Assembly (NCBI GenBank): GCA_035482595.1
Contig: DATHQQ010000423.1
Span: forward strand, 1 to 26,011
Reading direction: 5' to 3'
Length of the DNA stretch: 26,011 nt
DNA from: Verrucomicrobiia bacterium
Lineage (GTDB): Bacteria > Pseudomonadota > Alphaproteobacteria > Dongiales > Dongiaceae
Below the pieces are notes generated by a model. That model worked only from the letters and a program-made list of their open reading frames with translations. It was not told the DNA's origin and made no database searches. Each line of letters begins with the position of its first letter. Position 1 is the first letter of the stretch. This document shows, piece by piece, positions 1 through 24,292 of this stretch. The position numbers were made by a program, and so were the translations under genes.

Positions 1-1
1 C

Positions 2-3000
2 CAGGGCGTGCTGCTGCAGCGCAACGTCGGCTACAAGTCGATCGGCCACGGCTTCTATCTCGAGAGCGGCACCGAGACCGACAACAAGTTCTACTCGAAC
101 CTCGGGATCTTCGCCCGCGCCGCCGCCGTCAACCCGCAGAATCCCCGCGCGCTGCCCGGCATCCTCGCCTACTCGGGACAGTTTTTCAAAAGCTACTACG
201 ATCCCATAAAGAAGGTCGACATCACTGCGGCGCTTCCCGACACAGCATTTCCGTGGCGAAGCGACTACATGTTCCCCACCGTGTTCTGGATCACGAACGG
301 CTGGAACGACTTCATCGGCAATATGGCGGCCGGCGCGGGGGCCTGCGGTGCCTCCTATTGGCTCGTCCCGGCCTGGAATACCGACATGCCCGACGTGAGG
401 ACGTCGAGCAACACGCAGTTCAACACTCACATGAAATGGAACGGCTTCGCCTCCCTGCAGAAGGACCTCTCCTTGGCGGGATCGACCCCGCTCAAGTCGT
501 TCTATGGCAATTTCGCGACTTCGACCATGACCTCGTTCCAGACTGTCGGACAGACGTCGCCCTGCCCCGGCGCAACCTGGCCGAAAGATCCGGCAGCAGG
601 CAATCCCGGCATTTTCCCGGGAGTCACAAGCTTCGCGCCGACACCCGAGGCACCCGCCAATACGGAAGCCGACATGTACTATCCGCATGTCAGCGGCGGC
701 GGCCGGATGGCCACCATGTGCCCCCTCAAAGTCGAGGGTGACCCGAGCAAGGGCTACGACTGCACGCTCTTCACCAGCGGACAGAGATCATCCTGCAACA
801 ACGGCGACCCGCTGAAGAATTGCGCCGTCACCGTGCTCGACCACTTCACCTCCTCCTTCCATTGGGCCCAGACGAATTTCGCGGCGATCTGGCTGCGGCC
901 GCAATGGTATCTGGTCGACAACAGCGTGCTGACCGATGTCCAGAACGGCGGCCTCAGCTTCATCACCAGCGGCACCTATGACCGCTCCGCGGTGGTCGAC
1001 GGCGACTGGGCGGTGGTGAGGACCAGCGTGTTCATCGGCAATACGCAGAAGGAGGGGACAAACTCCTACGCCTCGAACCTCACCCCCTTCCAGCACACCT
1101 TCAAAGAGAACGACGGCTTGCCTTGCCAGAATGGCCGCCAGCCATCCCTCATGTGCGCCAACGCGAACGAGGGCGTCAGCCTTCCGATCGACAATTTCGC
1201 GGTCGGCCAGCGTCTCTTCAACATCTACGACGGGCCGGCCTATCAGGAGTCGAATATCTACCTGGATACAAGTACGGCGGAGTGCAAGGAATGCGTGTAT
1301 TCGCGCATGCCGGGCATCCGAAAGCAGACCAACTCGGACAAGTCGGTCTCTTGCTACCTGCCCAACGCGGCCATCGGATGGAAGCAGCCCAACGGCTTCT
1401 TCTATCCGCCCTCCTTCCACTCGACCAACCTGTTCTTCGACAAAGTCGAGATCCGGCACTACGTCATCGATGCCTTGTTCAAGGTGGGCAGCTACAATGA
1501 CGATACGACGCAGATAATGAATGACTATTGCGACTTCAGCGGCATTTTCCCCAACTTCGGAAACTTCAGCGATATCGACCGGCAGACCGAGCTCAACGAC
1601 GATGACGGCTCGCTGACGGGTCTGACCAACGACGTCAAGGTCCAGACCAAGGACCAGCCGCCAACGACCGAGTCCAAACCGACCGGCACGATATCGGTCA
1701 ACCCGGTCGAATTCTTCAGGGCACCGGTCGAAACGGCGGAATGCCTGTCGAACAGAGGCGTGACGCCGGACAAGGCCTGTCCGATTTCCAACCCGAAGCC
1801 GCCGCCGCCTTTCGTTTTGCCGGCTACGCCGACCCCGGCCGGGGCCAACACCAGCCCCTACGACTACGTCACGACGGTCGTCTTTCCGGAGCTCTGCAAA
1901 GGAGCTTTTCCCGCTGCGGGGACCCCTCGGAAATGCGGCGACGACAACGACAACGTCGGTGGAGTCGTCGAAGTCGGTGGAATCAAGTACACACGCTGGA
2001 CGAAGCTCCTCGGCAGGGCCGGCGACTGGTCGGCGGAATGCACGAATCCGGCCTGCTACGGCGTGCCTCTCTATCGCCAGCTCCTGACCGGCACCAGCGC
2101 TTCGCGCGAGCTGAAAGACTGGAACGCGACCTGCGGCACGATTGAGCTGCGCAAGAAAAACCAGAAGGACTGCCGCTGGCCCTTCGTGCGAATGGGCGGC
2201 CAATCGACCTACCAGCGCAGCTCGCTGACGGTCAATCACGGCACCTATTTCATCGACACCAGCGTCAGCAATGATACGCAAACGAAAAAGGAGGCTTTCA
2301 CGACGACCAAGCCCTGCAACGACCCAAGCGTCCCAGCCGCGGCTGACTGCTCTCCGCGCAGCGTGAATGTGTTCCTTAAGGGTCAGACCTACGACGTGTT
2401 CTTCCTCTTTGCGAAACCCGCGACCAAGCAGACCTACCAGATCTACGTCGGGTCCACGGGCTTTAACCTCGCCAACGATGTCGGAGCCATCCGGCCGGTG
2501 CTCGACACCATGCCGATGCCGAGCATCGAGTCCGTTACCCCCTGGCCCACGAATTGGACGAAGAACTACAACGACAAGGTGGCTTGCGCGACCTTCTTGA
2601 AGCCGGATAAGACGATAGATACGAGCTGCGGCATCCTCCAGGTCACGGTCGATTTCTCGGCCCAGACCGATCTCGATCCGAAAAGCCAGTGCCTGCCGGC
2701 CAACTTCTGCGTGAAATCCGGCAGCACTTGCGGCTGCAGCCTCAAGGCCAGCGATCCGCTGGCCTTGGCCGACCCTGTCCGCATGGATGCCTCGGGCAAA
2801 AACGTACTCTTCGGCGGCATACTGGGCGCTTGCCAGAAGACCTGCAGCCAATGGGCGGTCAAGGATCTGGATTTCCCGGGGAAGGGACCGCTGGGCTTCT
2901 CCTTCAAGATGGCCACCGACCCCGACGACCAAGGCTATCTGCACCGGCCGGTACCGCAGCCCTTCCCCACGACAAGGGATCGGGATCCGAAGAAATTTGA

Positions 3001-3124
3001 CCAACCCGATCCCGACTGGCTGACGATGTTCGCCACCACCGCGGTCCAACCCGATAAGTCGACGGGGGAATGCCACTATTCCAGCATTCCGACTAATGGT
3101 CCTGGCGCTTGCCAGATCCCCTGA
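2..3124 (+). CDS. Large secreted-type beta-helix protein, G8-domain/CEMIP-TMEM2-like (5'-truncated by window edge)
   Basis: Frame open from base 2 (QGVLLQRNVGYKSIGHGFYLESGTETDNKFYSNLG) to TGA 3122-3124. Motifs GHGFYLESGTE..N.FYSNLG, VFWITNGWNDFIGNMAAG, PLKSFYGN, FNIYDGP and NDDDGSLTG occur in the order I recall for CEMIP/TMEM2/PKHD1L1-type proteins. 32 Cys by hand count; Pro-rich linker PKPPPPFVLPATPTP. The G8 domain and signal peptide would lie upstream and are not visible. Confidence 0.75.
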   Translation, partial: QGVLLQRNVGYKSIGHGFYLESGTETDNKFYSNLGIFARAAAVNPQNPRALPGILAYSGQFFKSYYDPIKKVDITAALPDTAFPWRSDYMFPTVFWITNGWNDFIGNMAAGAGACGASYWLVPAWNTDMPDVRTSSNTQFNTHMKWNGFASLQKDLSLAGSTPLKSFYGNFATSTMTSFQTVGQTSPCPGATWPKDPAAGNPGIFPGVTSFAPTPEAPANTEADMYYPHVSGGGRMATMCPLKVEGDPSKGYDCTLFTSGQRSSCNNGDPLKNCAVTVLDHFTSSFHWAQTNFAAIWLRPQWYLVDNSVLTDVQNGGLSFITSGTYDRSAVVDGDWAVVRTSVFIGNTQKEGTNSYASNLTPFQHTFKENDGLPCQNGRQPSLMCANANEGVSLPIDNFAVGQRLFNIYDGPAYQESNIYLDTSTAECKECVYSRMPGIRKQTNSDKSVSCYLPNAAIGWKQPNGFFYPPSFHSTNLFFDKVEIRHYVIDALFKVGSYNDDTTQIMNDYCDFSGIFPNFGNFSDIDRQTELNDDDGSLTGLTNDVKVQTKDQPPTTESKPTGTISVNPVEFFRAPVETAECLSNRGVTPDKACPISNPKPPPPFVLPATPTPAGANTSPYDYVTTVVFPELCKGAFPAAGTPRKCGDDNDNVGGVVEVGGIKYTRWTKLLGRAGDWSAECTNPACYGVPLYRQLLTGTSASRELKDWNATCGTIELRKKNQKDCRWPFVRMGGQSTYQRSSLTVNHGTYFIDTSVSNDTQTKKEAFTTTKPCNDPSVPAAADCSPRSVNVFLKGQTYDVFFLFAKPATKQTYQIYVGSTGFNLANDVGAIRPVLDTMPMPSIESVTPWPTNWTKNYNDKVACATFLKPDKTIDTSCGILQVTVDFSAQTDLDPKSQCLPANFCVKSGSTCGCSLKASDPLALADPVRMDASGKNVLFGGILGACQKTCSQWAVKDLDFPGKGPLGFSFKMATDPDDQGYLHRPVPQPFPTTRDRDPKKFDQPDPDWLTMFATTAVQPDKSTGECHYSSIPTNGPGACQIP

Positions 3125-3293
3125 GCGAGTCGTCTTGGGGAGAGGGTAGCGAAGGTGCGGCGGCGGGCTCGGGCCCGCCGCTCGCCGGCTTCGGGGGCCC
3201 TTGTTGGCGGCTGTAGGCAGTCTCCACGCCGCCGATCCGGAGCCTGCGACCGTCGGGGCGCTCGGGGAGATGCTGCACGAGCGCGCCGCGTCA

Positions 3294-3307: not shown

Positions 3308-3793
3308 ATGGAACGGACAGTGCGGCGGTGTGGCCGGCGGGGCGGGGGGAGGCGGTTCTCCGAACGGGGGTTCTCCCTCGTCGAGCTTCTCGTCGTCCTC
3401 GCCATCGTGGCCGCGGTGGCGATCATCGCCTTGCCGAATCTCTTTTCGGGCCTGCCGGGCTTGCAGTTGCGGGGGGCGGCGGACGACATGGCCGCGACGC
3501 TGCGGGACCTGCATGAGACCGCCATCCGCGAGAGGATCACGACCGAGCTGACCCTCGACCCCGCGACGCGGATCTATCGAACATCGAATCTGCCGGCCCC
3601 CCATGCGCTGCCCAAGGTGGTCACGGGCGTGGGCTTCACCACGGCCGCCCTTCGCCCCGACGACACGGTGGCGCGGCTTCGCTTCTATCCCGACGGCACT
3701 TCCAGCGGCGGGACCCTCCGCCTGGAGCACGAGGGCCTCTCTGTGTCCGTCGTCGTCGACTGGCTGACGGGACGGGTATCGAGGCATGACTGA
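3308..3793 (+). CDS. gspH: Type II secretion minor pseudopilin GspH (GspH/FimT family)
   Basis: Basic leader, then class III signal G|FSLVELLVVLAIVAAVAII with E at +5; 161 aa; C-terminal LRFYPDGTSSGG..V.V.WLTGRV typical of GspH; first of four overlapping pseudopilin genes. Confidence 0.88.
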   Translation: MERTVRRCGRRGGGRRFSERGFSLVELLVVLAIVAAVAIIALPNLFSGLPGLQLRGAADDMAATLRDLHETAIRERITTELTLDPATRIYRTSNLPAPHALPKVVTGVGFTTAALRPDDTVARLRFYPDGTSSGGTLRLEHEGLSVSVVVDWLTGRVSRHD

Positions 3794-4184
3794 GCGCGCC
3801 CAGAGCGGCTTCACCCTGATCGAGGTTCTGGTCGCCCTCGCCATCGTCGCCATCGCCTTCGTCGTGGCCCTGGGCATATTCACCGGCGGGCTCTCCCGCC
3901 TCGACCACGACCACAATGTGCAATATGCCCTGCTGGTCGCCCAATCGGAGCTGGCGCGGGTGGGTCAGGATATCGCGCTGCAGGACCGCGAGATCGACGG
4001 CCCGGCAGACAGCCAAGGCGAGGACGGCTTCACATGGCATATCGCCATTGCGCCTTATGGCGGCGGGCCGGGGGGCCTGTTCGGTCATCGCGTCGTGGTC
4101 ACGGTCGGCTGGAACGAGGGCTGGCAGAAGCGCGAGGTGAGGCTCGACACCATCCGGCTCGGCCTCCAGGGAACCGGTTCGTGA
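3786..4184 (+). CDS. gspI: Type II secretion minor pseudopilin GspI
   Basis: G|FTLIEVLVALAIVAIAFVV prepilin motif; 132 aa; 8-nt overlap with gspH; second position in the H-I-J-K order. Confidence 0.88.
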   Translation: MTERAQSGFTLIEVLVALAIVAIAFVVALGIFTGGLSRLDHDHNVQYALLVAQSELARVGQDIALQDREIDGPADSQGEDGFTWHIAIAPYGGGPGGLFGHRVVVTVGWNEGWQKREVRLDTIRLGLQGTGS

Positions 4185-4861
4185 GCCGTCGCTTGCGCGC
4201 CGGAGAGGCCGGCTTCACGCTGATCGAGCTGCTCGTCGCCCTGGTCCTCGTGGCCTTCCTGACGACCCTGGTCTTCGGCGGATTGCGCCTGGCGGTACGG
4301 GCCTGGGCCAGATCCCACGAGAGCGTGGCCCAGGCCGCCGATCTCTGGGCGGTGGAGGGCGTGCTGCGCCGGGCGATCGCGCAAGCCATTCCGGCCTTCG
4401 CATCCGCGCGCAGCGACGATCGCAGGATCGTCTTCGACGGCGATGGCGAGAGCCTAGCGCTGCTGGCGCCCCTGCCCCAGGCCATCGCCGAAGGCATCAC
4501 GGCCCGGATGCGCTTCTTCCTGGCGCCGGACGGGTCGTCGAATGCCCTGATCATGGCCTGGCGCGTCGACCTGCCCGCGGCGGAAAGCGGGCGGGCACTG
4601 AGCGAAGACCGGGTCAAGCTGCTCGACCGCGTGAGCGCGATCCACATCGACTATCTGGGACCGGTCCAGCCCGGCGCCCCGCCGGTCTGGCAATCCAGGT
4701 GGTCGGGGCAGACCCGCCTTCCCGACCTCGTCCGCATCCGTCTCGAGCGCGACGGCACATCGCTGCCCAAATGGCCGGAGCTGACGGCAGAGCCGCAGGG
4801 ACAGCTGATCACGGGCTGCCTCTACGATCCCGTCAGCGGCGACTGCCGGAGGATCCCATGA
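4181..4861 (+). CDS. gspJ: Type II secretion minor pseudopilin GspJ
   Basis: GTG start at 4181 overlaps the gspI stop (GTGA), giving MSRRLRAGEAG|FTLIELLVALVLVAFL; C-terminal WQSRW...LPDLVRIRL and a CLYDPVSGDC Cys pair. The ORF-track start at 4034 is too far upstream. Confidence 0.88.
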   Translation: MSRRLRAGEAGFTLIELLVALVLVAFLTTLVFGGLRLAVRAWARSHESVAQAADLWAVEGVLRRAIAQAIPAFASARSDDRRIVFDGDGESLALLAPLPQAIAEGITARMRFFLAPDGSSNALIMAWRVDLPAAESGRALSEDRVKLLDRVSAIHIDYLGPVQPGAPPVWQSRWSGQTRLPDLVRIRLERDGTSLPKWPELTAEPQGQLITGCLYDPVSGDCRRIP

Positions 4862-5748
4862 CCGGCGAGCCTGTCAATGCCGGTTCCCCGCTCGACCCCG
4901 CGAGGACCGGCGAGGAGGACCGGTTTGCCGGACAGCAGGGCTTCGCCCTGATCACCGTGCTCTTCGCCGTGCTGATCCTGGCCACGATCGCGGCCAGCAT
5001 CATGGCCACGGGGCGCACCGAGAGCCGGCTCTCCCGCACACATCTCGACATGGCCGAGCTCGATGCGGTTGCCGATGCCGCGATCAACATCACCATCCTG
5101 CATCTGCTCGATCCCACGGCCGAGGTAAGGCCGCCGGCCGACGGCACGCCCTTCACGGTCGAGTTCGCCGGCCGGCGGGTTGCCATGGCCGTCCTGGACG
5201 AGTCCGGCAAGATCGACCTCAACATGGCCGATGCCGAGCTGCTACGCCGCCTCCTGGTCGCGGCGGGGGTCGGAGCCGATGCCGCACAACCGCTCGTCGA
5301 CAAGATTCTCGATTGGCGCGAGCCCGGCGAGGGCAAGCGGCTCAACGGCGCGAAGGCCAATGAATACAACGCGGCGGGCATCCTCTACGGCCCCCGCGAC
5401 GGGCCCTTCCAATCCATCGAGGAGCTGCAGCTCGTCCTGGGCATCACGCCGGAATTGTACGCGCGCCTGGCGCCCTCGCTGACCATCTATTCCCAGACGC
5501 CCTGGGTCGATCCGGGGTTTGCGCCGAGAGACGTGCTGACCGCGCTCGCGGGAATGGGCGGCGACCCGGTCTCGACGGTCTTGGCGGAACGCGGCACGGG
5601 CAGCAGCACCGGGGGCGTGATGATCGGGCATGCCTTCACGATCAGCGCCGATATCGAAGGCCCCGACCGGCTGCATGTCGCAAGGACGGCGGTGATCCGG
5701 CTGAGCGGCGCGCCGGGCGCGCCGGTGGGGATCTATCGGTGGCGGTGA
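4858..5748 (+). CDS. gspK: Type II secretion minor pseudopilin GspK
   Basis: ATG at 4858 overlaps the gspJ stop (ATGA); G|FALITVLFAVLILATIA lacks E+5 as expected for GspK; motifs DESGKIDLN, ILDWRE, GPFQSIEELQLVLGITPELYARLAPSLTIYS. Confidence 0.92.
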   Translation: MTGEPVNAGSPLDPARTGEEDRFAGQQGFALITVLFAVLILATIAASIMATGRTESRLSRTHLDMAELDAVADAAINITILHLLDPTAEVRPPADGTPFTVEFAGRRVAMAVLDESGKIDLNMADAELLRRLLVAAGVGADAAQPLVDKILDWREPGEGKRLNGAKANEYNAAGILYGPRDGPFQSIEELQLVLGITPELYARLAPSLTIYSQTPWVDPGFAPRDVLTALAGMGGDPVSTVLAERGTGSSTGGVMIGHAFTISADIEGPDRLHVARTAVIRLSGAPGAPVGIYRWR

Positions 5749-5805
5749 GACGCGCTACCGCTCCTTGTTCCGGGGGCGGGGGGAAGAGAGGAAGTGGAGA
5801 AATTC

Positions 5806-6504
5806 ATGAAGACCATCGGCCTGATCGGCGGCCTCAGCTGGGAGAGCACGGCGATCTACTATCGCCTGCTGAACGAGGCGGTGCGGTGGCGCCTGGGGGG
5901 CTTGCATTCCGCCAGACTCCTGCTGTGGTCCTTTGACTTCGCCGAGATCGAGGCGCTGCAGGCCGCGGGCGATTGGGCGAGCGCGACGGCGCATATGGCA
6001 GACGCCGCCCGGCGCCTGGCGCAAGGTGGGGCGGATTGCCTCGTCATCTGCAGTAATACCATGCATCGCATGGCCGCGGAGGTGGAGGCGGCCGGGGCCC
6101 TGCCCCTCATCCATATCGCCGATGCGACGGCCGCGGCGATCAAGCCCAGCGCCAGCCGCCGGCCGCTCCTGCTCGCCACGCGCTATACCATGGAGCAGCC
6201 CTTCTACAAGGGCCGGCTCCGCGAGCGCCACGGCATCGAGGCGATGGTGCCCGACGACGGCGAGCGCGATACGGTCCACCGCATCATCTTCGAGGAGCTC
6301 TGCCGCGGGATCCTCCGGCCGGAGTCCAAGGCCGCCTATCTGGAGATCGTGGGGCGATGCCGCGCCCGGGGCGCCGATGGCGTCATCTTCGGGTGCACCG
6401 AGATCGGCATGATCCTGGCCGAGCGGGATTTCGACATCCCGGTCTTCGACACCACCCTCCTCCATGCCGAGGCGGCCATCGCCTTCGCCGCGGGCGGCGG
6501 ATAG
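5806..6504 (+). CDS. Aspartate/glutamate racemase family protein (YgeA/RacX-like)
   Basis: MKTIGLIGGLSWEST N-terminus; two catalytic Cys motifs ICSNTMH and GCTEI; GGAGA RBS at 5796-5800 favours the ATG at 5806. Confidence 0.93.
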   Translation: MKTIGLIGGLSWESTAIYYRLLNEAVRWRLGGLHSARLLLWSFDFAEIEALQAAGDWASATAHMADAARRLAQGGADCLVICSNTMHRMAAEVEAAGALPLIHIADATAAAIKPSASRRPLLLATRYTMEQPFYKGRLRERHGIEAMVPDDGERDTVHRIIFEELCRGILRPESKAAYLEIVGRCRARGADGVIFGCTEIGMILAERDFDIPVFDTTLLHAEAAIAFAAGGG

Positions 6505-21994: not shown

Positions 21995-24292
21995 TCAGGT
22001 CTCCACCAGCACCGGCAGCTTGGGCGCCTGAGGCGGAGCCGGCGGCGTGGGATAGGTGAAGACCAGCTTTTCCTCCACCACATCGACCTGTACGACGCCG
22101 CCCTTCTCCAGGCGGCCGAAGAGGAGCTCCTCGGCCAGCGGCTTCTTGATGTACTCCTGGATCACCCGGGAGAGCGGCCGGGCACCATAGAGCGGGTCAT
22201 AGCCCTTGCGGGCGAGCCAGGCGCGCGCCGTGTCGCTGAGCTCGATGGTGACCTGCCGGTCGGCGAGCTGAGCCTCCAGCTGCATCACGAACTTGTCGAC
22301 CACCTTGGCCACCACCTCCGGCGGGAGGGTGCTGAAGGTGATCACCGCATCCAGCCGGTTGCGGAACTCGGGCGAGAACATGCGCTCGATGGCCTCCGTA
22401 TCCTCCCCTGTCCGGCCTTCGCGGCCGAAGCCGATCGCAGGCTTGGCCATCTGGGAAGCGCCGGCATTGGTCGTCATGATCAGGATCACATTCCGGAAGT
22501 CGACCGTCTTGCCGTTGTGATCGGTCAGCTTGCCGTGGTCCATGACCTGCAGCAGGACGTTGAAGAGATCGGGATGGGCCTTCTCGATCTCATCCAGCAG
22601 CAGCACCGCATGGGGGTGCTGGTCGATGGCATCGGTCAGAAGCCCGCCCTGGTCGAAGCCGACATAGCCCGGGGGCGCGCCCAACAGCCGCGACACGGTA
22701 TGGCGCTCCATGTATTCGGACATGTCGAAGCGGATCAGCTCGATCCCCAGGCTGCGGGCCAGCTGCCGGGCAACCTCGGTCTTGCCCACGCCGGTCGGGC
22801 CCGAGAAGAGATAGGCGCCGATCGGCTTCTCCGGCTCGCGCAGGCCCGCACGGGCGAGCTTGATGGCCGAGGCCAAGGCGTCGATCGGCTTCTCCTGGCC
22901 GAAGACCATGGTCTTCAGATCGCGCTCCAGATTCTGCAGGGCGAGGCGATCGTCCCGGCTCACGCTCTTGGGCGGGATGCGGGCGATCTTGGCCACCACT
23001 GCCTCGACATCCTTGACCGCGATGGTCTTGCGCCGCTTGCCCTCGGGCAGCAGCATCTGAGCCGCGCCGACCTCGTCGATCACGTCGATCGCCTTGTCCG
23101 GCAGCTTGCGGTCGTTGATGTAGCGCTGCGCCAGCTCCACCGCGGCGCGGATCGCCTCGGCGGTGTAGCGCACGTTGTGATGCTTCTCGTAATAGGGCTT
23201 GAGGCCGCGCAGGATCTTGATCGAATCCTCGAGCGAGGGCTCGTTGACGTCGATCTTCTGGAAGCGGCGGACCAGCGCCCGGTCCTTCTCGAAGTAGTTC
23301 CGGTATTCCTTGTAGGTGGTGGAGCCGATGCAGCGGATGACACCGCCCGCCAGCGCCGGCTTCAGCAGATTGGAAGCGTCCATCGAGCCGCCGCTGGTGG
23401 CACCGGCGCCGATCACCGTATGGATCTCGTCGATGAACAGGATGGCGTTGGGCATCTTCTCGAGCTCGCCGATCACCGCCTTCAGCCGTTCCTCGAAATC
23501 GCCGCGGTAGCGGGTGCCGGCCAGGAGCGAGCCCATGTCGAGGCTATAGATCACGCAGCCCTTCAGCACCTCCGGCACGTCGCCGGTGACGATGCGCCGT
23601 GCCAGGCCCTCGGCAATGGCGGTCTTGCCCACGCCGGGCTCGCCGACATAGAGGGGATTGTTCTTGGTGCGCCGGCAGAGGATCTGGATGGTACGCTCGA
23701 CCTCGGCCTCGCGACCGATGAGGGGGTCGATCTTGCCCGCCGAGGCCTTCTTGTTGAGGTCGACGCAATAGGAGTCCAGGGCCTCGCTGCCGCCCTTGGA
23801 GGTCTTGTCGCCCGCATCGGCTTCGGCACCCTGGACGCGGCGGGTCTCGGAGCGGCCATGGGCCTTGGCGATGCCGTGGCTGATGTAGTTGACGGCATCG
23901 AGGCGCGACATCTCCTGCTCCTGCAGGAAAAATACAGCGTGGCTCTCGCGTTCGGAGAAGATGGCGACCAGGATATTGGCGCCCGTCACTTCCTCGCGGC
24001 CGGAGGACTGCACATGGATGGCCGCGCGCTGGAGCACCCGCTGGAAGCCGGCGGTGGGCTTGGCCTCACCCCCGCGGTTGGAGACGAGATTGCCGAGCTG
24101 GCTGTCGATGTAGTCGATCAGGTCGCGGCGCAGGCGCTCGACATCGACATTGCACGCCCGCATCACCGCGATCGCATCGGGATCCTCGGTCAGCGCCAGC
24201 AGCAGATGCTCGAGGGTCGCGAAGTCATGCCGTCGCTCATTGGCATAGGCGAGCGCACGGTGCAGCGTCTTCTCCAGATTGGGCGACAGCAT
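21995..24292 (-). CDS. clpA: ATP-dependent Clp protease ATP-binding subunit ClpA
   Basis: Two AAA+ modules ([15 protein letters not shown]; [18 protein letters not shown]), [31 protein letters not shown]; 765 aa; directly downstream of clpS. Confidence 0.98.

What the first reader, a model, noticed from the sequence alone, without database searches (positions are those of the whole stretch)
2..3124. Bacterial homologue of the animal hyaluronan-depolymerising proteins CEMIP/TMEM2, with 32 cysteines
Seen: the ordered motifs GHGFYLESGTE-x-N-x-FYSNLG, FWITNGWNDFIGNMAAG, PLKSFYGN, FNIYDGP and DDDGSLTG; 32 Cys by hand count, mostly as close pairs; a Pro-rich hinge near 1790-1845; lower GC than the housekeeping genes (29/60 at 181-240 versus 41/60 at 23041-23100 in clpA). 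Established: CEMIP/KIAA1199 and TMEM2 are G8-domain, parallel beta-helix proteins tied to hyaluronan degradation, and PKHD1/PKHD1L1 share the fold. Inference: an exported, disulfide-rich glycan lyase/hydrolase or adhesin of unknown substrate. The motif match is from memory, and the G8 domain and catalytic residues cannot be checked because the N-terminus lies outside the window.
Basis: partly seen in the sequence, partly recalled or inferred. Interest (0 to 1): 0.62.

Follow-up and report, generated by a model that had tools for sequence, protein, structure and literature searches.

The report
Bacterial TMEM2/CEMIP-like exoprotein beside pseudopilin genes
The open frame is the last 1,040 residues of a large, cysteine-rich bacterial relative of the human hyaluronan-turnover proteins TMEM2/CEMIP; the family is widespread and already annotated but unstudied, and here it sits beside its own set of type II secretion "tip" genes, which suggests how it leaves the cell.

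Summary
All six motifs, the 32 cysteines, the Pro-rich linker and the lower GC are at the stated coordinates.

The homology is real:
- Pfam CEMIP_beta-hel scores E 1.1e-16.
- A family profile hits TMEM2 (8c6i) at E 1.5e-41.
- The AF2 model (pLDDT 87.8) has TMEM2 as its only significant Foldseek match, with VIA Z 20.3.
- The C-terminal 430 residues alone match TMEM2's otherwise unique "domain X" (Z 10.9; next best 4.1).

The gene is cut by the contig start. Its G8 domain and signal peptide are seen only in full-length relatives of 70-76% identity. No lectin (GG) domain was found.

The family is not new. It has 430 loci in GTDB species genomes, is named "G8 domain-containing protein" or CEMIP in public records, and this scan found it at least 8 times before on other DNA.

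What is added here is the genomic context. Translationally coupled gspH-I-J-K genes follow directly. They are orthologous to the tip genes of an accessory, G8-linked type II secretion cluster seen in 14 other alphaproteobacterial loci. Within the genus they co-occur with the G8 gene.

Best reading: an exported beta-helix glycan-binding or glycan-cleaving protein secreted through a cargo-specific pseudopilus tip. The substrate is unknown, and hyaluronan is unlikely.

The parts
2..3124 (+). 3' part (1040 codons plus stop) of a gene of about 1,600 codons for a G8/CEMIP-type beta-helix protein. The 5' end lies off the contig.
   Evidence: It is 70-76% identical to the full-length proteins P0003 and P0004 and to L005.
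5..379 (+). Stretch matching Pfam CEMIP_beta-hel (aa 2-126, profile positions 72-179 of 212). It holds the GH-x-F-Y-L-E-x-G-x-E-x-x-N motif shared with TMEM2.
   Evidence: E 1.1e-16; alignment to 8c6i residues 507-605.
2..1860 (+). Right-handed parallel beta-helix body with long cysteine-bearing loops (aa 1 to about 620).
   Evidence: AF2 model. In one search, beta-helix lyases, hydrolases and tailspikes align to model residues 1 to about 615-620 with Z 14-17.
1793..1843 (+). Pro-rich linker between the beta-helix and the C-terminal domain.
   Evidence: sequence; pLDDT 69-71 in this stretch.
1850..3028 (+). C-terminal beta-sandwich domain with the fold of TMEM2 'domain X' (aa about 617-1009).
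   Evidence: Model mef96e440b328 has pLDDT 87.8. VIA against 48,161 chains gives 8c6i residues 964-1184 at Z 10.9 with 176 residues aligned and rmsd 3.3, and the next best is Z 4.1. Foldseek's top hit is 8c6i with probability 0.96.
3159..3181 (+). GC-rich hairpin (10-bp stem, 3-nt loop) in the 183-nt spacer after the stop codon. It has no T tail. It may be an attenuator or an mRNA-stabilising element.
   Evidence: Function is inferred only.
3308..3793 (+). gspH/xpsH-like minor pseudopilin with a prepilin motif (G|FSLVELLVVL).
   Evidence: N_methyl, GspH; XpsH, 3e-23.
3786..4184 (+). gspI/xpsI-like minor pseudopilin. It overlaps gspH by 8 nt.
   Evidence: N_methyl; XpsI 4e-14, GspI 5e-8.
4181..4861 (+). 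gspJ-like minor pseudopilin. Its GTG start overlaps the gspI stop (GTGA).
   Evidence: T2SSJ, below the cut-off; T2SS protein J, 2e-17.
4858..5748 (+). gspK-like minor pseudopilin. Its ATG overlaps the gspJ stop (ATGA). The N-terminal motif G|FALITVL lacks Glu5, as in GspK.
   Evidence: T2SSK_1st, 1.3e-17; GspK, 1.2e-23.

Best explanation
The ORF is the C-terminal two thirds of an exported, disulfide-rich protein of about 1,600 residues. It belongs to the bacterial branch of the TMEM2/CEMIP family. Family members begin with a G8 segment that starts a right-handed parallel beta-helix, and the helix is followed by a 'domain X' beta-sandwich. No lectin (GG) domains were detected.

By synteny with its closest relative, it is probably the second gene of a tandem pair.

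It is followed by translationally coupled gspH-I-J-K genes. These are the retained part of an accessory, G8-linked type II secretion cluster. That cluster reads G8, GspE, F, H, I, J, L, M, a GspC-like gene, sometimes D, and K. It never includes the major pseudopilin G.

The proposed mechanism has four steps:
1. The protein crosses the inner membrane by Sec.
2. It folds and forms about 16 disulfides in the periplasm.
3. The cell's general T2SS motor, whose genes lie elsewhere in this genome, expels it through the outer membrane.
4. That motor is primed with this cargo-specific H-I-J-K tip.

Outside the cell the protein binds, and probably cuts or remodels, a polysaccharide along the beta-helix groove.

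Shown here: the homology, the fold, the gene linkage, and co-occurrence within the genus. Inferred: export of this particular copy, dependence on the T2SS, and any enzymatic activity or substrate.
For: Homology and fold:
- Pfam, profile, Foldseek and VIA all point to TMEM2.
- 92 full-length relatives mostly begin with Sec-type signal peptides.
- Four full-length relatives that were checked carry G8.
- Many cysteines are invariant across 95 sequences.

Linkage to type II secretion genes:
- H-I-J-K follow on the same strand with overlapping stop and start codons.
- 14 alphaproteobacterial loci carry a fuller T2SS gene set (GspE and F, the minor pseudopilins, L and M, where the contig reaches that far) next to the G8 gene. 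In 13 it lies downstream on the same strand (L009, L011, L013, L017, L018, L019, L022, L027, L037, L039, L049, L063, L076). In L020 it lies alongside on the opposite strand.
- L005 and L038 share the short G8-HIJK form of the window.

The tip genes belong to the G8-linked set:
- The window's HIJK are 53-58% identical to the G8-linked HIJK of L022.
- They are only 30-42% identical to this genome's own general-T2SS H, I, J and K on C514 and C534.

Shared machinery:
- The genomes of L011, L022 and L076 each hold a general T2SS with D and G, plus the G8-linked cluster without G.
- The L005 genome has one T2SS plus the orphan G8-G8-HIJK.

Co-occurrence and selection:
- In the genus, the three genomes with G8 (G000, G008, G010) are the only ones with a GspK orthologue of 70% identity or more. 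Seven genomes without G8 have none.
- HIJK are under purifying selection, omega 0.15-0.29.

Glycan link:
- All structural neighbours after TMEM2 are polysaccharide lyases, hydrolases, epimerases and tailspikes, Z 14-17.
- In a Thermodesulfobacteriota/Dadabacteria clade, the family sits beside GT-C glycosyltransferases.
Against: - The N-terminus is missing, so no signal peptide or G8 domain can be shown for this copy.
- No secretin was found in this 90%-complete assembly.
- Most family members (Acidobacteriota, Binatia, 'delta' lineages, Nitrobacter) have no pseudopilin genes within 10 kb, so T2SS linkage is not a property of the whole family.
- The linked genomes are related to each other, so the counts are not independent.
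- No catalytic residues are defined for any family member, and purified TMEM2 ectodomain was inactive (PMC10206443).
- omega of 0.65 against the L005 copy could mean relaxed constraint rather than diversifying selection.
Confidence: 0.55

Rival explanations
1. Tip-displayed adhesin or enzyme. The G8 protein is not released. It rides on the H-I-J-K tip complex of a short pseudopilus, as PilY1 rides on the minor-pilin tip of type IV pili.
For: - In the window, L005 and L038, the only secretion genes kept next to the G8 genes are the four tip pseudopilins.
- The linked clusters never encode the major pseudopilin G.
- The protein evolves fast (omega 0.65 against 0.03-0.08 for accC and aroQ), as surface adhesins often do.
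- PilY1 genes also sit within minor-pilin operons (my own knowledge).
Against: - The structure and family searches returned only TMEM2 and beta-helix glycan enzymes. Nothing resembling PilY1's beta-propeller or vWA domains appeared.
- The conserved C-terminal tail is shared by family members that have no pseudopilin neighbours.
- No T2SS is known to carry a large tip protein (my own knowledge).
Confidence: 0.2
2. The adjacency has no functional meaning. The protein is a periplasmic or surface enzyme that trims the cell's own exopolysaccharide, and the neighbouring T2SS genes are inherited synteny.
For: - Most of the family has no T2SS neighbours.
- One clade is linked to GT87 and PMT_2 glycosyltransferases instead.
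- Another finding of this scan places a family member inside an EPS island (a lead only, not tested here).
Against: - The G8 and HIJK genes are gained or lost together within the genus.
- They sit at a different chromosomal site in the L038 genome while staying together.
- Linkage persists across several alphaproteobacterial families although the G8 genes fall in several tree clades.
- The orphan HIJK genes are under purifying selection.
Confidence: 0.15
3. A true hyaluronidase, working like the activity claimed for animal CEMIP/TMEM2.
For: Homology to TMEM2/CEMIP over the beta-helix and domain X.
Against: - The carriers are free-living soil, peat and water bacteria such as Stellaceae, Nitrobacter, Acidobacteriota and Binatia, where hyaluronan is not an expected substrate.
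- The lectin-like domain bearing the Arg residue needed for hyaluronan degradation in CEMIP and TMEM2 was not detected (PMC10206443).
- The intrinsic activity of TMEM2 is itself disputed (PMC10206443; references 34 and 45 in PMC12423501).
Confidence: 0.03

Closest known systems
Vertebrate TMEM2 (CEMIP2; PDB 8c6i) and CEMIP (KIAA1199/HYBID)
   Same: - The beta-helix belongs to Pfam CEMIP_beta-hel, with shared motifs: G-H/R-YPVHFH, GH-x-F-F/Y-LE-x-G-x-E-x-x-N and FWI...N...N-x-AAG.
- G8 forms the first turns of the helix in full-length relatives.
- A 'domain X' beta-sandwich follows the helix.
- Both are extracytoplasmic and disulfide-rich.

   Different: - No counterpart of lectin-like (GG) domain 2 follows domain X. 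No GG/ILEI Pfam hit was found in four full-length relatives.
- Only about 135 profile positions lie between G8 and the main helix, where TMEM2 carries a beta-sandwich plus a lectin domain.
- Pfam CEMIP_X is not hit by sequence.
- Long Cys-rich loops are present and there is no transmembrane anchor.
- The genomic setting is bacterial, beside T2SS genes.
Accessory type II secretion systems with an adjacent dedicated cargo gene: Dickeya Stt with PnlH (a beta-helix pectin-lyase homologue), Pseudomonas Hxc with LapA, and E. coli T2SS-beta with SslE. These are cited from my own knowledge and were not checked here.
   Same: A second T2SS-type gene set lies next to one large exoprotein gene, in a genome that also has a general T2SS.
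   Different: - The G8-linked sets lack the major pseudopilin GspG and the prepilin peptidase, and mostly lack the secretin.
- In this window only the four minor pseudopilins remain.
- None of these clusters has been studied experimentally.
PilY1 with the minor pilins FimU-PilVWX of type IV pili (from my own knowledge)
   Same: A gene for a large exported protein sits in one operon with four tip (pseudo)pilin genes. Some bacteria carry alternative sets of such genes.
   Different: There is no PilY1-type fold or domain. The pilin genes here are of the T2SS type (XpsH, XpsI, GspJ, GspK).

Membership tests
TMEM2/CEMIP family (G8, CEMIP beta-helix, domain X) | CEMIP-type beta-helix (Pfam PF24606) above the gathering score | tested here: met
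   61.7 bits against a cut-off of 27.3, E 1.1e-16. The family profile hits 8c6i at E 1.5e-41.
TMEM2/CEMIP family (G8, CEMIP beta-helix, domain X) | N-terminal G8 domain (PF10162) | tested here: inconclusive
   The N-terminus lies off the contig and is absent from the assembly. G8 is present in relatives P0003, P0005 and P0017 above the cut-off, in P0042 just below it (21.4 against 22.9 bits), and in the L005 paralogue.
TMEM2/CEMIP family (G8, CEMIP beta-helix, domain X) | 'Domain X' beta-sandwich after the helix | tested here: met
   By structure: Z 10.9, 176 residues aligned, rmsd 3.3 to 8c6i residues 964-1184. The next of 48,161 chains scores Z 4.1. By sequence, Pfam CEMIP_X (PF24605), assuming it is in this copy of Pfam, is not hit at E up to 1.
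TMEM2/CEMIP family (G8, CEMIP beta-helix, domain X) | Two lectin-like GG domains | tested here: not met
   Nothing follows domain X except a tail of about 30 residues. The model aligns to TMEM2 only up to residue 1191. No GG/ILEI Pfam hit was found in four full-length relatives at E up to 0.01. The N-terminal insert was not folded.
TMEM2/CEMIP family (G8, CEMIP beta-helix, domain X) | Hyaluronan binding or depolymerisation | not testable with these tools
   No catalytic residues are defined for the family (PMC10206443; no residue data in PMC10474455).
Exported (Sec-dependent) protein | N-terminal signal peptide | tested here: inconclusive
   It is missing here. Most of the 92 full-length relatives start with a hydrophobic core followed by an A-x-A site. 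The 32 Cys, many of them invariant, fit an extracytoplasmic protein.
Type II secretion minor pseudopilins GspH-I-J-K | Prepilin-type N-terminal cleavage/methylation motif, with best family matches to H, I, J and K | tested here: met
   N_methyl is found in H, I and J, and T2SSK_1st in K. NCBIfam gives XpsH 3e-23, XpsI 4e-14, protein J 2e-17 and GspK 1e-23, all below the equivalog cut-offs. K has the motif G|FALITVL.
Complete type II secretion system in one locus | GspC, D, E, F, G, L, M and O alongside H-K | tested here: not met
   The window has none of them. E, F, O, a G-like gene, L and M lie on C199, C514 and C534. No secretin was found in this 90%-complete genome.
PilY1-like tip adhesin | C-terminal beta-propeller (PilY1/PilC) or vWA domain | tested here: inconclusive
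   There is no such Pfam hit. No such chain appears among the fold matches, which are filled by TMEM2 and beta-helix enzymes.

The most novel reading that the evidence does not exclude
The orphan gspH-I-J-K set is a cargo-specific pseudopilus tip. The cell swaps this tip onto its general type II secretion motor to export, or to display, the TMEM2/CEMIP-like protein. The minor pseudopilins, and not GspC or GspD alone, would then determine which cargo is secreted. The series from a full accessory T2SS to the tip genes alone would be a natural experiment showing which parts carry specificity. It would also give the first tractable bacterial model for finding the binding or active site of the TMEM2/CEMIP fold.
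Probability: 0.3. Interest if true: 0.7.

Novelty: new member of a known kind. Interest (0 to 1): 0.42.

Why it matters
Whether the TMEM2/CEMIP fold is itself an enzyme is disputed, and its active site is unknown (PMC10206443; opposing JBC 2023 papers cited in PMC12423501). A bacterial branch that keeps the conserved beta-helix rungs and domain X but lacks the lectin domains is a simpler system for testing what the core does.

For secretion biology, a cargo gene that travels with only the four tip pseudopilins offers a direct genetic test of whether the pseudopilus tip contributes to cargo specificity.

The gene in this window is truncated. The practical value therefore lies in the family and in cultured carriers (Marinibaculum pumilum, Reyranella soli, Nitrobacter), not in this copy.

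Tried and rejected
Context came from the search for related loci and the genome search instead.
- The missing N-terminus was sought in the whole assembly with a full-length relative and was not found.
- NCBIfam has no model that hits the G8 protein.
- No match was found in 72,556 plasmids.
- Foreign origin inferred from low GC was rejected, because GC3 is normal and only GC1 is low, as in all homologues.
- Cytochrome pairing, reported by earlier notes for other subfamilies, was checked. No CxxCH-bearing neighbour lies within 600 bp of any G8 gene in the 77 fetched loci and the window.
- The first tree attempt timed out in MAFFT. It was redone with FFT-NS-2 and FastTree.
- Literature searches found no paper on bacterial G8/CEMIP-like proteins or on their link to type II secretion.
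I could not test whether the residues shared with TMEM2 cluster in the groove.
Full report
**Observation**

Window 2..3124 (+) is an open frame that runs from the contig edge to a TGA. The frame has exactly 32 cysteines. A PKPPPPFVLPATPTP stretch starts at nt 1793.

The GC counts given (29/60 and 41/60) are exact. The ORF is 60.9% GC, against 65-69% for its neighbours. The deficit sits in first codon positions (0.52 against 0.62-0.74), while third positions are normal (0.82). All homologues show the same pattern. It therefore reflects a Thr/Ser/Asn/Asp/Lys/Phe-rich composition and not recent transfer.

The window is the start of contig C423 of an 820-contig, 90%-complete assembly. The missing N-terminal part was not found anywhere in that assembly.

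**Identity**

- Pfam gives one hit: CEMIP_beta-hel, 61.7 bits against a cut-off of 27.3.
- phmmer against PDB sequences finds TMEM2 (8c6i) at 8e-4. The alignment includes GH-x-F-Y/F-LE-x-G-x-E-x-x-N-x-F-x-NLG.
- A profile of 95 family members raises the TMEM2 hit to E 1.5e-41. It covers both the G8 part and the main beta-helix, including the G-H/R-YPVHFH rung that lies just upstream of the window.
- An AF2 model of the 1040 residues is confident (pLDDT 87.8, pTM 0.91).
- Foldseek finds TMEM2 as the only significant PDB match (E 2.3e-10).
- VIA gives Z 20.3 over 555 residues (model 1..1016 against TMEM2 587..1191). It is followed by polysaccharide lyases, hydrolases, epimerases and phage tailspikes at Z 14-17, which cover only model residues 1 to about 620.
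- The last 431 residues were folded alone (pLDDT 87.8) and compared with 48,161 representative chains. They match TMEM2 residues 964-1184 at Z 10.9. The next chain scores Z 4.1.

TMEM2 residues 964-1184 form its 'domain X', which the crystallographers described as unrelated to any known structure (PMC10206443). The shared architecture therefore goes beyond a generic beta-helix.

There is no counterpart of TMEM2's second lectin-like domain. No GG/ILEI hit appears in four full-length relatives either.

**The family**

More than 1,250 proteins match. Full-length members have 1,400-1,620 residues and carry G8 plus CEMIP_beta-hel. Several are already named 'G8 domain-containing protein' (NCBI: Nitrobacter hamburgensis, Reyranella soli) or 'cell migration-inducing and hyaluronan-binding protein' (JGI).

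Across one genome per GTDB species there are 430 loci. They lie in Alphaproteobacteria, Acidobacteriota, Binatia, 'delta' lineages, Dadabacteria, Rokubacteria, Thiocapsa and Methylotetracoccus.

Most full-length members start with a Sec-type signal peptide. Many cysteines are invariant. The distribution is patchy: 4 of 41 related genomes carry the family. None is on a plasmid in PLSDB.

This scan had already reported the family at least eight times on other DNA. The protein as such is therefore a new member of a known, though biochemically untested, kind.

**Context**

Directly downstream on the same strand are four translationally coupled genes for minor pseudopilins:
- gspH (3308-3793)
- gspI (3786-4184)
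- gspJ (4181-4861)
- gspK (4858-5748)

All four carry prepilin-type N-termini. Their best matches are XpsH, XpsI, T2SS protein J and GspK. A GC-rich hairpin without a T tail lies in the 183-nt spacer. An Asp/Glu racemase gene and aroQ-accB-accC follow.

I compared the window with the 77 fetched loci:
- 14 alphaproteobacterial loci carry, next to one to three tandem G8 genes, a fuller T2SS set of GspE, GspF, H, I, J, a GspL/PilN fusion, GspM (subtype b), a small GspC-like protein, sometimes the secretin, and GspK. This set lies downstream on the same strand in 13 of them and on the opposite strand in L020. A few of these loci end at a contig edge before the set is complete.
- None of the clusters includes the major pseudopilin GspG.
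- L005 (76% identical and syntenic through accC) and L038 share the short form seen here, G8-H-I-J-K.

The genomes of L011, L022 and L076 each also hold a separate general T2SS with secretin and GspG. The L005 genome has a single T2SS plus the orphan module.

The window's own genome carries general-T2SS genes on three small contigs, with GspO, E, F, a G-like gene, H, I, J, L, M and K. No secretin was found.

The window's H, I, J and K are 53-58% identical to the G8-linked set of L022. They are only 30-42% identical to the genome's own general set. They are therefore orthologues of the G8-linked tip genes.

Within the genus, the three genomes with the G8 gene are exactly the three with a GspK orthologue of 70% identity or more. 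Seven genomes without the G8 gene have none. Two genomes lacking G8 that were inspected also have an unrelated sequence upstream of aroQ. In the L038 genome the module sits at another site but remains intact.

The H-K genes are under purifying selection against L005 (omega 0.15-0.29). The G8 part evolves much faster (omega 0.65, at the same dS as accC and aroQ, whose omega is 0.03-0.08).

On a tree of 85 family members, T2SS linkage is confined to alphaproteobacterial clades. A Thermodesulfobacteriota/Dadabacteria clade is linked instead to GT87 and PMT_2 membrane glycosyltransferases and an FAD amine-oxidase-like protein. Other lineages show no conserved neighbour.

**Interpretation**

The most economical reading has the following parts:
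- The protein is exported and disulfide-bonded, with a beta-helix that binds and probably processes a polysaccharide.
- In this alphaproteobacterial lineage it leaves the cell by type II secretion, using its own H-I-J-K tip on shared machinery.

Homology, fold, linkage and co-occurrence are shown. Export of this copy, T2SS dependence and any activity are inferred.

Rival readings are:
- display on the pseudopilus tip in the manner of PilY1
- adjacency without function
- a true hyaluronidase, which is unlikely given the habitats, the missing lectin domain and the unsettled activity of TMEM2 itself

**Limits**

- The gene is truncated.
- The related genomes are not independent samples.
- Model coordinates could not be inspected, so the position of the residues shared with TMEM2 relative to the groove is untested.

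Noticed in passing
G000 contig C781:8062-8588 (outside the window; L003 and L004): A degraded relic of the last ~150 codons of another G8-family gene, with in-frame stops and a frameshift. It still ends in the family's C-x-Y-x-x-LP...C-Q-I-P tail.
   Followed up: partly
G000 contigs C199, C514 and C534: A general type II secretion gene set (GspO, E, F, a G-like gene, H, I, J, L, M, K) is split over three small contigs. No secretin was found anywhere in the 90%-complete assembly.
   Followed up: partly
L041, L050, L051, L067, L074 and L080 (for example L074:4517-11140): In Thermodesulfobacteriota and Dadabacteria, the G8 genes are followed by a conserved set of neighbours: GT87 and PMT_2 (GT-C) glycosyltransferases, an FAD amine-oxidase-like protein and two proteins with no family match. 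This suggests glycosylation of the G8 protein or joint work on a glycan.
   Followed up: partly
L009 and L021 (same 332-kb contig); also L005, L011, L013, L049, L050, L067 and L080: The family is expanded in tandem. One contig carries five paralogues (2 + 3), and several other loci carry pairs. The assembly break at the window start probably falls in such a repeat.
   Followed up: partly
window 2-3121 against L005:10001-13111: The G8 part has dN/dS 0.65, reaching about 1 in residues 307-408 and 619-723. Its dS is the same as that of accC and aroQ, whose omega is 0.03-0.08. This means diversifying or relaxed selection on an otherwise deeply conserved scaffold.
   Followed up: partly
L012 (CAWEBX010000026.1): A record titled 'uncultured archaeon' carries a G8 gene and neighbours nearly identical to those of Nitrobacter vulgaris (L014). 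The label or the bin is probably wrong.
   Followed up: no
window 5794-6504 and G013:C2 / G007:C7 (L094, L095): Same-genus genomes without the G8 gene share aroQ-accB-accC. They lack the Asp/Glu racemase and everything upstream of it, so the racemase may belong to the accessory module.
   Followed up: partly
L009:8195-8488, L013:6927-7364 and L018:7770-8384: A CueR-type MerR regulator, preceded in L018 by the end of a P-type ATPase gene, lies just upstream of the G8 gene in three related loci. This is probably inherited synteny.
   Followed up: no
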